From Schmidtea polychroa (taxonomy: Eukaryota), in the NCBI GenBank assembly GCA_044892525.1, contig CM097885.1:7566001-7626000 (forward strand): a stretch of DNA of 60,000 bases, read 5' to 3'. The translations under genes and the position numbers were made by a program. Positions 33,101 through 39,100 of this stretch are shown here, in pieces. The stretch's first letter is position 1, and every line of letters starts with the position of its first letter. The notes beneath the pieces are model-generated. The model was not told the DNA's origin. It searched no databases and saw nothing but the letters and a program-made list of their open reading frames with translations.

Positions 33101-36100
33101 GGTGATGATTTACATATAAATTCTTTCTCCCTGTTCACTCCCCTTTCATCATAATCTTATTTTATTTGCAGTGAATTATTGATAAATTCTATTGATATAT
33201 TTGTGCTGGTTGATTTATGAGAAAAGATGTATTAAATTTCATTTGATTATTAAGTGAGAGAGAAATGAAACCATAAAAATTCTTCAATGATGTTTTTTGT
33301 GTGATTTCTTGTATTTGAATATGTTTAAACTTGTTGGTATCTATGTCAACAATTGTTTACAATTTTTTAGGTTTTTATAGTTATAAAAATGATTTTGTTC
33401 AATGATCATTTATTAAACTAAAGCTTCATGACTGGAGAGGGGTTCCTAAAATGATCAGATAACTGCTTTCTCTTTGGAAATAAGATAACATTTGCATAGC
33501 TTAGTACTATTTTATTTTACCAGAATAATAGGAAATTTATTTTTCTTCATTTATTTATCTTCAGATCTTGATAGGGTTTTTCGGATAAAAATTATGACCA
33601 TATGTTTCATATTCTCATCAGAATTTAACTTTCAATGGACTAACTCAATGGTTATTAACACATAGGTTTTGAGATAGAAGAATTGAATGAAAGTCAGAAA
33701 AGTTGAAGAAACAGCAATTAAAAATGAACATGTTGATTTAACATCTAAATTCATATCTAAAACCTTTATACGAACTTCTATGCTAGCTTTATCAATGAAT
33801 GTTTCAGAATTTCATTTACACATCTACTTTTTTTTAGGATTTTTCTTTTTTAGTATAAATACAATATTAAAGAAAATATTTTTATGGGAAATTTGGGTTA
33901 TTTATATCACGTTTACAAGTAATTTGTAAGTATATTATATTATAAATAAAAAATTTTAGTATATATAGAAATACAATTGTTTTTATTATAACAAACACTA
34001 AATAATGATATAGATTTAAATAAAACGAAAAGCACCAAATCCAATGTATATATTTTACTACAATATATTTCGACAGAATCACTGTCATCTTCAGGTAGAA
34101 TTGAAAATCAAACTAAATCAATATAAATTGCTCTTTTTTAAACAAGCTAATTAACTAATTCATCAATTTTTTAAAAATTAATTTCACTAAAAATTCACAA
34201 AATTCTGTTTTTTCAATTCAAACTTTAAAAATTATAAAACTTTTAAAATTTTAAAACTTTTAAAACTCACAAAAGTTGAAATCAAACAAAATCTTAAGAA
34301 ATTTTTCACAAAATTGTGTTTACTAATATTAATCAATTCCTTCAGTCCATAGTGATCAGGAACTTGAAAACGGAAAATTATTTTTAATTACAAATTTAAT
34401 AATTAATATTTAATCGATAAAATAATAATACCAAATAATAAATATAATTTTCCACAATTCAATGAAAATATTTAGCAATTCAATGTTAATTGTAAATGCA
34501 AAACATCTTCTGTTTTCCTCCCCATTGTTATTTTAATATATTTATTTTACTAAGCGAAAACTGACGTAGAAAAACTAAAATATAAATTTCAATTCCGTCT
34601 TTTCAATAATAAAAATGAATAGGTTCTTAATAGCAGTATAAATTAAATGTTAAATAATAAATAAGAATAAATAATAGTTTTATTTATAAGATGAAAATTG
34701 TCAATTATGAAATCATCCTTTTCAATATACTTCAAAATTTAGATGTAATGTTCAATGTGTGCTTTTGTGCTTTCTTTAAAATATATTATCGACATTTTGA
34801 TTGGATATAAATCTGATTTAAACGATATAACATGTAAGCAACAACTAAAAATTCGAAATTTAATAAAAATTCTTAAGAAATTAAAACTAAAAGAACGCCA
34901 AGGAATATAAATGGAATTTTAAAGTTTAAAATGATTTTTAATTTTTAAGTATTTTTAAAATCTTTTTAAATTGAAAATCTTTATATAACGAAAATAAATA
35001 AAATATTTCAACCACCTCAAATGATAATCAGATTAAAGATTCTTCACGATTCTTATTTAGAGTTAAGTGTTAGCTGTTACTCTCTTACGATAATTAATTA
35101 TTTTAATTATTGACTGATAGTTTTTCCAATAAGATCCATGTGCTCTTTAATTCTTTGCATTTAATAAAATACATTAAGTGGCCGAGAAGATGGGCGAATA
35201 CTAAAGATTTTGAAATTGAAATATTATATAGTGGGGAAGGATAAAAATAGGGTAAATATACATATACATCACAAAAAGTGATGATAAACTGTGAAGAGAT
35301 GATACTAAAATTCAAGACTTCGATGTTGATTTCGTGACAATATTTGATGAATTTATTAACAATTATGATGTGATTTATTAACTCATTTATTTGTGTGTTA
35401 ATTTTAATTTTATTTTTTTGGTTATTTTTATGTAGTAAATAATGATGACAATTATTGATTTTTAAACAATATTAAATATTTTATTTCTATTACAATAAAC
35501 CCCCATACATATACAATAATTATAATTAATTGATTAAACCCGATGTAATAATATAGTAATATTTAAAAGTAGATGGATTGGGCACCGCTGGCACAGGGCA
35601 CCGCTAGCACAGTACCCCCTCCCCCCGACAGGAAAATTTAAAAAAAAATTTTTTCAAGGTCAAATTTTAAACAAAGACATATGACTCATCAAGGTCATTG
35701 AAACAAAGACCATTACTCATCCGATGACTCATTAAATTTCTCAAGGCCATTTAAACAAAGACCATGACTCATCCGATGACGCATCAAGGACATTCTCAAG
35801 GTCGTGTGACTCATCCAAGGTCATTACCAAGGTCATATGACTCATCCTATGACTCATCAAGGACATTTTCAAGGTCACCTGAGTCACCCTATGACTCATA
35901 AAAATTTCCAAGGCCGTCGAAACAAAGACCATGACTCATTCAAGGTCATATGACTCATCCAAGGACATTCTCAAAGTTATATGACTCATACTATGACTCA
36001 TCAAGGTCATCTGAGTCATCCTATGACTCATCGAGGTCATTTTCAAGGCCGCGTGACTCATCCAAGGTCATTCCCAAGGTCATATGAGTCATCGCGATGA

Positions 36101-39100
36101 GTCATCAAGGTCATATTATTATTTAAAAAAATATTATTATTTTTAAAAAATATTATTATTTTATTATAAGTTCCCGCCGACGAAAATTATTCATCGATAG
36201 CTCATTTTAAAGCTCAATCCAAGACCTTTCGAATCAGCTATATATCTTGTTATTACGATTATTATTTCTAAAGGTATTATTATTATTATTATTATTATTA
36301 TTATTATTATTATTATTATTATTATTATTATTAGTATTAATCTATATACTCCGAGTTTATCCGACAAAATATTTTATCCCCCTATGGGTACTGTTCACAA
36401 GGGTACTGTTCACAAGGGTACTGTTCACGCTCAACAACTTGCATTCGATTATTTTATTTTTTCAAGTTGATATTATTATTATTTTCAAGGTCATATTATT
36501 AGTTTTCAAAGTATTATTATTTTCAAGGTCATATTATTATTTTCAAGGTCATATTATTATTTTTCAAAATATTATTATTTTCAAGGTCATATTATTATTT
36601 TTCTAAATATTATTATTTTCAAGGTCATATTATTATTTTTCAAAATATTATTATTTTCAAGGTCATATTATTATTTTTTGTTTTAATTATCGATTACTTA
36701 ATAATTTAATTTTGTTTAAATCGTTTATTATATCATTTTTTTTGTTTTAATTATCGATTATAATTATTATTATTAAATCGTTGATTATATTATTTATTTT
36801 GTTTTAATTATCAATTACATAATAATTTCATTTTGTTTAAATCGTTTATTATATCATTTTTTTGTTTTAATTATCGATTATAATTATTATTATTAAATCG
36901 TTGATTATATTATTTATTTTGTTTTAATTATCAATTACATAATAATTTCATTTTGTTTAAATCGTTGATTATATTATTTTTTTTGTTTTAATTATCGATT
37001 ACGTTTGTTTAAATTATCGATTATGTAATTATTTAATTTATCATTATTTTTGGGAAAGATATTAACGCCCTCGCGGAAGATGTTATTTTCAAAATTATTA
37101 TTATTATTTTCAAAATTTTAATCAATATTATTATTATTATTATTATTATTATTATTATCATTATTATTATTATTATTATGATTATGATTATTATTGCAAA
37201 TATTCATAAAACTTAATTTCTACGTCAATTTCATGATTTTCAACATTTTCACGATTTTCAGCATTTTCATCATTATTTCAGGAACATTTTCATCAAATAT
37301 TTTTCAAAGTATTATTTTCAAAGAATTATTTTCAAAGAATTATTATTATTATTATTATTATTATTTTTTATTATTTGGAAAGTTCTAATTATTATTTTAA
37401 TTTCGAAGTTTCATTATTATTATTTACTTAAATATTTATAAAATATTTATAATTTCTACGTCAATTACATGATTTTCAACATTTTCATCATTTGCATGAT
37501 TATTTTAATAATTTTCTACATTTTCATGATTATTTCAGGATTTTTTTCATCGAATATTTTTCAAAGTATTATTTTCAAATTATTTTCAAAGTTTTTATCA
37601 ATATTATTATTATTATTATTATTATTATTAGTATTATTTGCGAAGTTCTCATTATTTTATTTTCGATGTTTTATTATTATTTACTTAAATATTCATAAAA
37701 CTTAATTTCTGCATCAATTTACGATTTTCAATATTTGATGATTATTTTCAGGAACATTTTCATCATTTTTAACGTTTTCATCATTTTCAATATTTTCATC
37801 ATTTTCAACATTTTCATTATTTTCCATATTTTCACGATTTTCAACATTTTCAGGAACATTTTCATCATTTTCTATATTTTCATGATTTTTAACATTTTCA
37901 TAATTTTCACGATTTTCAATATTTTCATCATTATTTTCTTCAAAATTCTTAGTTTATTTATAAAATATTATTATTATCATTTTCAAAATTATTTTCAAAT
38001 TTCTTATTATTTATTTTCAAAGTATATTATTATTATTATTATTATTATTATTATTATTATTATTATTATTTTTATTATTATTATTATTATTATTATTATT
38101 ATTATTATTATTATTATTATTATTATATATATACTCCTAGTCTATCCGACAAAATATTTTGTCCCCTTATGGGTACTGCTCACACTCAACAGGTTGCAAG
38201 GTTACTAGTCATGCTTATTATTATTGTTATACAATATGATCTTACTTAGACATTTGAAGGTTCAACCATGGTTACAATTTCTAAATTTTGAAAACTCTAA
38301 TTTGATTGGCTATCTCAATTTTTATAAATGTAAAAACAAAAGTAATTTATTTATTAAGAAATTTATTACTGATGATTTCTACAAGTAAAACTGTTGAATA
38401 TGAATGTGTAAATCACAAAACACATTTGGTAACTTTATTATTTTGTCAATATTTTTTATATATGTCACTTATAGCAAGGAAGTCCTACTAGAAATAAGGA
38501 ATAATTTATCTCGAGTGTTATTAAAATTATATTTCGACTTTACGCTTCTTACCATTTTAGAATAAGATTTTTTATCAAAATTTGTGTTAATTTGGCTGAT
38601 TTAATTTGATGGAGTTATTGTTAATTCGTTTTATTATATAAATATATACTCTGAGTTTATCCGACAAGATATTTTCTCCCTCTATGGGTACTGTTCACAA
38701 ATGGTACTGCTCGTAGGGGTACTGGTCGTAAAGGTACTGGTGTGTTTTAATGTTTTTATTTAGGCAAATATTTGGTTATTATTTAGCATTAAATTCATTG
38801 GTAATTTTTAGAGTTAGCGGGATTTTACTAACATTATTACTAACCTTTTTGTGAATAATTGAAAATTTAAGGTCTAATTTAAATTCTAAGACAAATTTAA
38901 TTAATTTCTGGATAATTTGCTATATTTTATTGACTTGTTTTTAAATTTAATTTTAAATAAAAATTATTTTTAATGACAGTTAGGTTAATAATTAGAGTTT
39001 TTACAATAATCAAGTGATAATTATTTAATTTTTGTAAAAATTATTGTAAAATATACTGAAATTTGTGATTTTGAAAGATATATCACGGTTATAATTGCTA

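What the first reader, a model, noticed from the sequence alone, without database searches (positions are those of the whole stretch)
35654..36113. Subterminal array of AP-1-like (TGA[C/G]TCA) and nuclear-receptor-like (TCAAGGTCA) sites in both arms
Seen: about 17 TGACTCA/TGAGTCA and about 10 CAAGGTCA, interleaved in shuffled rather than simple tandem order, starting ~90 bp from the end. The right arm (45023-45530) has a differently arranged version that keeps the motifs. Established: TGA(C/G)TCA is the bZIP AP-1 site and TCAAGGTCA is the NR5A/FTZ-F1/ERR monomer site. Adenoviral ITRs use host transcription factors to stimulate protein-primed replication. Inference: a host-factor-driven enhancer or origin that couples the element to stress, wound or developmental signals, and possibly affects the host gene.
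Basis: partly seen in the sequence, partly recalled or inferred. Interest (0 to 1): 0.8.

Follow-up and report, generated by a model that had tools for sequence, protein, structure and literature searches.

The report
Swappable transcription-factor arrays in Maverick ends
Both ends of a very abundant virus-like jumping element (a Maverick/Polinton) in a likely flatworm genome carry a dense, shuffled array of AP-1-type and NR5-type DNA words whose key bases vary less between copies than most spacer bases, and which likely works as a host-factor-driven enhancer deciding in which cells the element switches on, though binding and activity are untested.

Summary
Observation confirmed: 17 TGA(C/G)TCA and 10 CAAGGTCA at left, 13 and 13 at right, against shuffle means below 0.2. 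The array lies in the terminal inverted repeats of a 10,055-bp gene-poor Maverick/Polinton derivative (AGTAG ends, 6-bp target duplication) inside an intron of a TMEM184C-like gene. It is a family trait: the end has 1,583 exact genomic matches, full-length sisters encode polymerase, ATPase, integrase and protease, and 56 of 60 ends chosen by terminus alone carry the array. The host encodes NR5, Jun-like and Fos-like DNA-binding domains. Sister ends swap in CRE/PAR-type or NR5-only arrays. Variable length and variable distance from the end favour an enhancer over an origin helper. No binding, chromatin or expression data could be examined, stress coupling is unproven, and nothing supports an effect on the host gene. 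I found no paper describing such arrays; the scan noted an AP-1 array in Maverick ends in another genome (unchecked).

The parts
35562..35567 (+). Left target-site duplication TTTAAA
   Evidence: sequence
35568..45622 (.). Gene-poor (non-autonomous) Maverick/Polinton derivative, 10,055 bp, ends AGTAG...CTACT
   Evidence: ends shared with polymerase-bearing sisters
35568..38461 (+). Left inverted arm (2,894 bp; 52 mismatches in 2,774 aligned bases against the right arm)
35568..35617 (+). Near-invariant terminal ~50 bp, candidate core origin/integration end, followed by variable C-run and A/T-run
   Evidence: role inferred
35654..36113 (+). Left AP-1/NR5/Sox-like word array (17 TGA(C/G)TCA, 10 CAAGGTCA, 4 AAACAAAGA)
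36360..36423 (+). Inner conserved box (TCCGACAA ... GGGTACTG x3), six copies in this element, one per arm in full-length sisters, also in family with L037 end; function unassigned
36485..36665 (+). Second, NR-only array (6 TCAAGGTCA in A/T-rich 20-38 bp units)
38600..41700 (.). Gene-poor interior, itself multicopy (about 40 best candidates scored, 93-100% identical over their main match)
41721..42275 (-). RING (C3HC4) open frame, 85% identical to the RING gene that lies next to the polymerase end of full-length sisters
42285..45622 (-). Right inverted arm (3,338 bp)
44502..44586 (-). Right NR-only array (3 TCAAGGTCA)
45024..45530 (-). Right AP-1/NR5/Sox-like word array (13 TGA(C/G)TCA, 13 CAAGGTCA, 3 AAACAAA)
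45623..45628 (+). Right target-site duplication TTTAAA
21200..46695 (+). Host TMEM184C-like gene; coding matches at 21200-21513, 25711-26019, 28486-28742, 30515-30625 and 46498-46695; the element lies in the intron between the last two

Best explanation
The array is a family-wide, copy-number-variable cassette of AP-1-type and NR5-type words in the ends of a Maverick/Polinton family, and it likely acts as an enhancer read by host Jun/Fos-type and FTZ-F1-type factors that would switch on the element's genes in particular cell states. Shown: the anatomy, the family-wide presence, the variant pattern, the host readers' genes and the exchange of array types between ends. Inferred: slippage and unequal exchange reshuffle 10-13 bp units while selection during the element's own propagation removes site-breaking changes; the arrays act at a distance, because the genes nearest both ends are read outward towards them; gene-poor copies like this one inherit the array with the end they need for mobilisation. 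Untested: binding, enhancer activity, and which cell state (wound, differentiation or germline) is read.
For: Family trait: 1,583 exact matches of the 22-bp end; 56 of 60 ends picked only by that terminus carry an array of 200 bp or more; AP-1 and NR counts track each other (median 19 and 19, r 0.89 over 77 arms). Variant pattern in 75 arms: NR variants 1C 162, 9G 72, 7G/C/A 36/34/33 against 15 or fewer at every core position; the three top transitions of nine are the three allowed by PyCAAGGPyCPu. AP-1 variants: centre C-to-G 137, 9C 39, 1G 38 lead all 27 (flank preference recalled); the G-centre words sit in forward flanks, so they are substitutions, not flips. Spacer heterozygosity 0.28-0.56 at 5 of 7 spacer positions against mostly 0.01-0.12 in cores. 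Shared-versus-private test over 52 elements: site-keeping variants are shared more often, Fisher p 0.017 (NR) and 0.0012 (AP-1); internal positions only 0.035 and 0.0018. Host readers: L111 has the NR5 P-box ESCKG and hits SF-1/NR5A2 at 1e-31; L219 and L220 hit JunD and FosB best. Schistosome FTZ-F1 binds TCAAGGTCA and CCAAGGTCA probes (PMC8673669 S4 table), which are 1,315 of 1,683 NR-like words here. Two other end types hold either CRE/PAR-plus-AP-1 arrays or NR5 arrays in the same scaffold. Planarian Polintons gain H3K4me3 and RNA during differentiation (PMC8532177).
Against: No binding, ATAC or expression data were examined. Variants are inherited, so counts are not independent events, and positions 1 and 9 are unit junctions. 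Two T bases after the NR word are as invariant as the core (heterozygosity 0.02-0.06). Schistosome FTZ-F1 did not bind CCAAGGCCA in 2 of 2 probes, and A and G at position 7 are outside the quoted consensus, so treating position 7 as free was partly a choice made after seeing the data. Apparent singletons are also high at NR 7 and AP-1 5, which unit shuffling explains but a mutation hot spot could too. One anchored set (N-1-A) shows heterozygosity 0.18 at NR core position 5. Two other Maverick end types here have arrays with neither word. JUN/FOS motif enrichment in germline chromatin was seen in schistosome but not in the other two species studied (PMC11398382).
Confidence: 0.55

Rival explanations
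1. The host factors bind, but their job is in replication or mobilisation: they help load the protein-primed polymerase or open and pair the ends, as NFI and NFIII/Oct-1 do in adenovirus.
For: Arrays sit in both ends, NR words point inward (1,436 forward vs 58 reverse); gene-poor copies and ~1-kb mini-elements keep arrays (12 of 20 fetched arm regions of the gene-poor subfamily show one); adenovirus ITRs hold replication-enhancing host sites (PMC5717082 passage).
Against: Array start varies from 61 to 134 bp behind C- and A/T-runs of variable length, and AP-1 count from 3 to 42, whereas adenoviral helper sites lie in the invariant first ~60 bases (their spacing dependence is recalled). Core decay is higher in 7 gene-poor arms (0-5% per position) than in 14 full-length arms (0.3-2.7%), though age alone could explain this. 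One element with a perfect target duplication lacks the array at one end (L053/L054).
Confidence: 0.17
2. The array is a neutral minisatellite born by slippage inside the terminal repeat; its likeness to AP-1 and NR5 sites is chance, and uniformity comes from recent amplification and arm homogenisation.
For: Family is young (polymerase 96-98.5% identical among 7 full-length copies); all six end types seen have some subterminal repeat, two with no AP-1/NR5 word and two with an unassigned GATGCCTAAT word; invariant TT linker; core bases decay after insertion (85 of 4,106 sites).
Against: Three canonical words (AP-1, NR5, CRE/PAR) recur in the same slot; frequent variants fall on degenerate positions of two different words, including an internal transversion; spacers vary several-fold more than cores.
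Confidence: 0.14
3. The words are binding sites for a protein encoded by the element itself, like subterminal transposase sites in DNA transposons.
For: Subterminal position and retention in gene-poor copies; the family encodes several unassigned small proteins and a TBP-like protein.
Against: No bZIP or C4 zinc-finger family was found in the 12 frames of full-length copies scanned; the same end occurs with different arrays and the same array behind different ends; variation follows host-factor consensus.
Confidence: 0.08
4. This particular insertion has been co-opted as an enhancer of the host TMEM184C-like gene.
For: It lies in an intron, 876 bp from the next coding match, with about 50 candidate sites.
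Against: The array is a trait of hundreds of elements; the window's arms show 4 core changes in 159 aligned core sites, no better than other copies, and more position-7 variants than full-length copies.
Confidence: 0.06

Closest known systems
Maverick/Polinton elements (adintovirus-type), PMC8097293, PMC6431247, PMC8502044 (passages)
   Same: AG-rich ends, 6-bp target duplication, terminal inverted repeats; full-length sisters of 18-20 kb encode protein-primed polymerase, A32-like ATPase, rve integrase with chromodomain and adenain-like protease.
   Different: The window copy is gene-poor with ~2.9-3.3 kb arms (vertebrate range 46-1,447 bp). The passages read describe only the 6-bp end motif, not transcription-factor arrays or exchangeable array types.
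Adenovirus inverted terminal repeat (core origin, NFI, NFIII/Oct-1, Sp1, ATF), PMC5717082 (passages)
   Same: Invariant terminal segment followed by host-factor sites, including bZIP-type sites; related protein-primed replication.
   Different: Adenovirus has a few fixed single sites in ~140 bp; here 30-80 words form a shuffled array of 200-1,275 bp at variable distance, with an NR5 word.
Retroviral/LTR-retrotransposon U3 enhancers with variable repeats of host-factor sites (recalled, not from a call)
   Same: Copy-number-variable, exchangeable block of host-factor sites in a terminal repeat, thought to set cell-state specificity.
   Different: Here the repeat is inverted, in a DNA-replicating element, and lies downstream of the nearest genes rather than at a promoter.
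Subterminal repeats of cut-and-paste DNA transposons and foldback elements (recalled)
   Same: Short words repeated just inside both ends, kept in non-autonomous copies.
   Different: Those words bind the element's transposase; these match host-factor consensus and no matching DNA-binding family was found in the element.

Membership tests
Maverick/Polinton | Terminal inverted repeats with AG-type ends | tested here: met
   AGTAG...CTACT, arms 2.9 and 3.3 kb; end is AGTAGA, not the exact vertebrate (AGT)2 or (AG)3
Maverick/Polinton | 6-bp target-site duplication | tested here: met
   TTTAAA here; perfect in 20 of 24 end pairs
Maverick/Polinton | Protein-primed polymerase, integrase, ATPase, protease in the element | tested here: not met
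   Window copy holds only a RING frame: it is a non-autonomous derivative, not a full member
Maverick/Polinton | Same genes in sister elements with the same ends | tested here: met
   L047/L048, L050 and others: A32 ATPase, rve plus chromo, Peptidase_C5; the 1,354-aa frame did not hit PF03175 itself but is 58% identical to PF03175-positive loci L021-L025
Maverick/Polinton | [quoted passage not shown] | tested here: inconclusive
   Two conserved frames (407+ and 360 aa) in the expected place, no Pfam hit; not folded
AP-1 response element array | TGA(C/G)TCA with free centre and constrained half-sites | tested here: met
AP-1 response element array | Host Jun/Fos-type genes present | tested here: met
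   (modest E-values, 1e-7 and 5e-6)
AP-1 response element array | Bound by Jun/Fos and inducible | not testable with these tools
   no run was listed
NR5 (FTZ-F1/SF-1) response element array | PyCAAGGPyCPu variation pattern | tested here: inconclusive
   Positions 1 and 9 fit; position 7 takes A, C and G equally, and schistosome FTZ-F1 did not bind the C form
NR5 (FTZ-F1/SF-1) response element array | Host NR5 receptor present | tested here: met
   L111, 1 of 30 loci read out of 53 zf-C4 matches
NR5 (FTZ-F1/SF-1) response element array | Bound by the host receptor in vivo | not testable with these tools
   no data
Adenovirus-type auxiliary origin | Host sites at fixed distance next to the core origin | tested here: not met
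   start 61-134 bp, variable
Known structured RNA | Rfam match | tested here: not met
   0 matches in 35400-45800

The most novel reading that the evidence does not exclude
Maverick ends carry an exchangeable 'tropism cassette': arrays of host-factor sites (AP-1 plus NR5, NR5 alone, or CRE/PAR plus AP-1) that move between ends and let each lineage choose the cell state in which it wakes, and their amplification has seeded the genome with about 97,000 perfect NR5 and 68,000 perfect AP-1 words, enough to titrate these factors or rewire wound and differentiation programmes in a regenerating animal.
Probability: 0.3. Interest if true: 0.8.

Novelty: new variant of a known kind. Interest (0 to 1): 0.58.

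Why it matters
How Mavericks/Polintons are switched on in animals is open. If these arrays are enhancers, they name the host factors and give a direct test with existing planarian ATAC, ChIP and RNAi data. The swap of array types between ends would be an LTR-like route to cell-state specificity in a virus-like DNA element. Independently of mechanism, the two words are 32-fold and 24-fold above their reversed controls genome-wide (97,461 vs 3,031 and 67,878 vs 2,876), so these elements could confound motif-enrichment work in this genome and may act as a sink for AP-1 and NR5 factors.

Tried and rejected
Sequencing runs: a search with the left end and the word ATAC listed no run; none was listed, which is no evidence, and no reads were laid. 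Cross-species test: the TBP-like alignment gave 1 unrelated-looking viral locus and 80 kept of 175 metagenome loci, the capsid-like frame gave none; none of these 81 loci showed a recognisable Maverick end or an AP-1/NR5 cluster, mostly short contigs, so uninformative. Rfam: nothing. Gene-poor versus full-length comparison: only 5 of 20 fetched regions passed the strict terminus and length filter, plus the window's 2 arms; inconclusive. Arm-versus-arm rates (core 2.1%, spacer 3.9%, degenerate 4.2%; baseline 18 of 1,480, 1.2%) are inflated by misaligned sister units, so used only to show that cores decay after insertion. Inversion as source of G-centre AP-1 words: rejected by flanks. ERR as reader: unlikely. 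An IR/DR dimer site for the NR-AP-1 junction: considered by eye, imperfect, not pursued. Kapitonov and Jurka 2006 was not held. PMC12660999 and PMC11410931 held no relevant passage. No structure or complex prediction was run: it could not test DNA binding.
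Full report
Observation. Window 35654-36113 holds 17 TGA(C/G)TCA and 10 CAAGGTCA; 45023-45530 holds 13 and 13; 2000 dinucleotide shuffles gave means of 0.06-0.19 and maxima of 2-3. The arms' arrays are 461 and 508 bp and align in 5 blocks.

What the element is. The array lies in the arms of a 10,055-bp insertion, 35568-45622, with AGTAG...CTACT ends and a TTTAAA duplication. The arms are 2,894 and 3,338 bp with 52 mismatches in 2,774 aligned bases. The interior holds one recognisable frame, a C3HC4 RING. 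The insertion is in an intron of a TMEM184C-like gene whose best named relative is from Schistosoma; I infer a flatworm host, likely a planarian (inference, partly recalled). The 22-bp end has 1,583 exact matches in the genome and 0 for the reversed control. Of 10 end pairs fetched as halves, 7 were 18-20 kb; they show frames for an A32-like ATPase, rve integrase with chromodomain, adenain-like protease, TBP-like protein and RING, and a 1,354-aa frame 58% identical to PF03175-positive loci that did not itself hit PF03175. Target duplications are perfect in 20 of 24 pairs. These are the marks of Mavericks/Polintons (PMC8097293 passages; PMC6431247 passages). The window copy is a gene-poor derivative whose interior is itself multicopy.

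The array is a family trait. Among 80 loci examined 79 ends were found; 77 had four or more motifs and 75 had arrays of 200 bp or more (2 dropped as short). Twenty loci were picked by likeness to the window arm and are biased; of 60 picked by terminus alone, 56 had such an array. Median counts are 19 AP-1 and 19 NR words, r 0.89; NR words point inward 1,436 to 58; 66% of array bases lie in a word. Spacing is stereotyped: NR-AP-1 one base, like-like three bases. The exact NR-T-AP-1 19-mer occurs 7,033 times; TCAAGGTCA 97,461 times against 3,031 for the reversed word, ATGACTCAT 67,878 against 2,876. The ends with the exact terminus account for roughly a quarter to a third of these (my estimate); the rest were not assigned.

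Selection test. Single-base variants of the NR word: 1C 162, 9G 72, 7G 36, 7C 34, 7A 33, every core variant 15 or fewer. The top three of nine transitions are those allowed by PyCAAGGPyCPu (PMC3630131, one passage). For AP-1, centre G 137, 9C 39 and 1G 38 lead, then 4G 31; the flank preference is recalled. G-centre words sit in forward flanks. With anchoring on a neighbour, 5 of 7 spacer positions have heterozygosity 0.28-0.56 and cores mostly 0.01-0.12; exceptions are two invariant T after the NR word and 0.18 at NR position 5 in one set. Over 52 elements, consensus-compatible variants are shared by three or more elements more often than others (NR 19 vs 56 private, others 12 vs 93, p 0.017; AP-1 13 vs 49, others 7 vs 137, p 0.0012); internal positions alone give p 0.035 (position 7 taken as free after seeing the data) and 0.0018. 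Variants are inherited and edge positions are unit junctions, so these p-values overstate independence. Between the arms of single insertions cores differ at 85 of 4,106 sites, spacers at 102 of 2,610, against 18 of 1,480 outside the array: cores decay once inserted, so the constraint acts on propagating lineages, not visibly on resident copies.

Readers. L111 has the NR5-specific P-box ESCKG (PMC8363021 passages) and best hits SF-1 and NR5A2; it was the only such locus among 30 read of 53 matches. L219 and L220 best hit JunD and FosB. In the EMSA table of PMC8673669 (passages and the whole S4 table) schistosome FTZ-F1 bound TCAAGGTCA and CCAAGGTCA probes, which make up 1,315 of 1,683 NR-like words here, but did not bind CCAAGGCCA in 2 of 2 probes, against my reading of position 7. 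fos-1 and jun-1 are wound-induced in planarians (PMC5515462 passages); JUN/FOS motifs mark schistosome germline chromatin but not that of the two other species studied (PMC11398382 passages and section 6); planarian Polintons gain H3K4me3 and RNA during differentiation and are held down by SMEDWI-2 (PMC8532177 passages; the word 'motif' does not occur). So wound, differentiation and germline are all candidates and none is shown.

Exchange of arrays. A second end type (127 matches) carried CRE/PAR-type words in 12 of 12 arms and no NR5 word, yet L037 with that end has 9 CAAGGTCA and no AP-1. A third (297 matches, mostly ~1-kb elements) had CRE/PAR arrays in 8 and NR5 arrays in 4 of 12 arms (6 and 3 of 9 elements). 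Two regions show the AP-1/NR5 array behind a fourth end. Two further end types have arrays with neither word. CRE/PAR labels are recalled.

Mechanism. The first ~50 bp are near-invariant and are the likely origin and integration end. The array starts 61-134 bp in, behind runs of variable length, with 3-42 AP-1 words, unlike the fixed replication sites in the first ~60 bases of the adenovirus ITR and more like its Sp1/ATF part (PMC5717082 passages). Genes nearest both ends read outward, so the array is not their proximal promoter. I favour a distance-acting host-factor enhancer (0.55), then a replication or mobilisation helper (0.17), a neutral minisatellite (0.14), sites for an element protein (0.08; no bZIP or zf-C4 in 12 frames scanned) and host co-option (0.06).

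Novelty. Host-factor sites in element ends are known from adenovirus ITRs and LTRs. Paper searches (listings only, apart from the papers named) returned nothing on such arrays in Maverick ends; searches served other points; the library lacks most subscription journals and Repbase reports, and Kapitonov and Jurka 2006 was not held. PMC8502044 and the Dugesia preprint 10.64898/2025.12.11.693146 were seen as passages; bioRxiv supplements were not visible and could hold element annotations. The scan noted an AP-1 array in Maverick-like ends in another genome (e1-9359705, unchecked) and has many notes on this genome's TBP-like gene; no look-alike of this array was indexed. Verdict: real feature, new variant of a known kind, interest 0.58.

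Noticed in passing
L048:4943-5407 (+); also L027, L028, L033, L037: Full-length sisters encode a 154-aa TBP-like protein (Pfam TBP 1e-15) with 134 unnamed relatives; already noted many times by the scan.
   Followed up: partly
window 36360-36423, 38145, 38660, 40664, 42594, 44728: Conserved inner box TCCGACAA...GGGTACTG; its GGGTACTG is the reverse complement of a word in the terminal 50 bp, so the two bracket the array. Shared with the L037 end type.
   Followed up: partly
window 35579-35602: Terminal segment holds TTGGGCA and CTGGCA words that loosely recall an NFI site at the position of the adenoviral one (recalled resemblance).
   Followed up: no
L244-L255; G000 pattern: A ~1-kb MITE-like Maverick-end family (297 ends), mostly within one shared flank, with either CRE/PAR or NR5 arrays.
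   Followed up: partly
L040-L042; one search pairs such as C1:235384712 and C1:235393695: Head-to-head duplicated polymerase genes forming palindromic elements; similar palindromes of the window's gene-poor interior.
   Followed up: no
L232-L255: Unassigned repeated word GATGCCTAAT with variants, interleaved with CRE/PAR words.
   Followed up: no
window 3092-6576: 35-bp satellite, about 100 copies, strong strand skew.
   Followed up: no
window 57602-59190: Gypsy-like protease, reverse transcriptase and RNase H frames.
   Followed up: no
window 24826-25472 and 22389-22887: 36-bp and 66-bp tandem arrays in introns of the TMEM184C-like gene.
   Followed up: no
L048:7926-8429 (+): 168-aa frame next to the end with a hydrophobic N-terminus and coiled-coil-like Pfam near-hits; in some copies a partial duplicate replaces the RING gene at the other end.
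   Followed up: no
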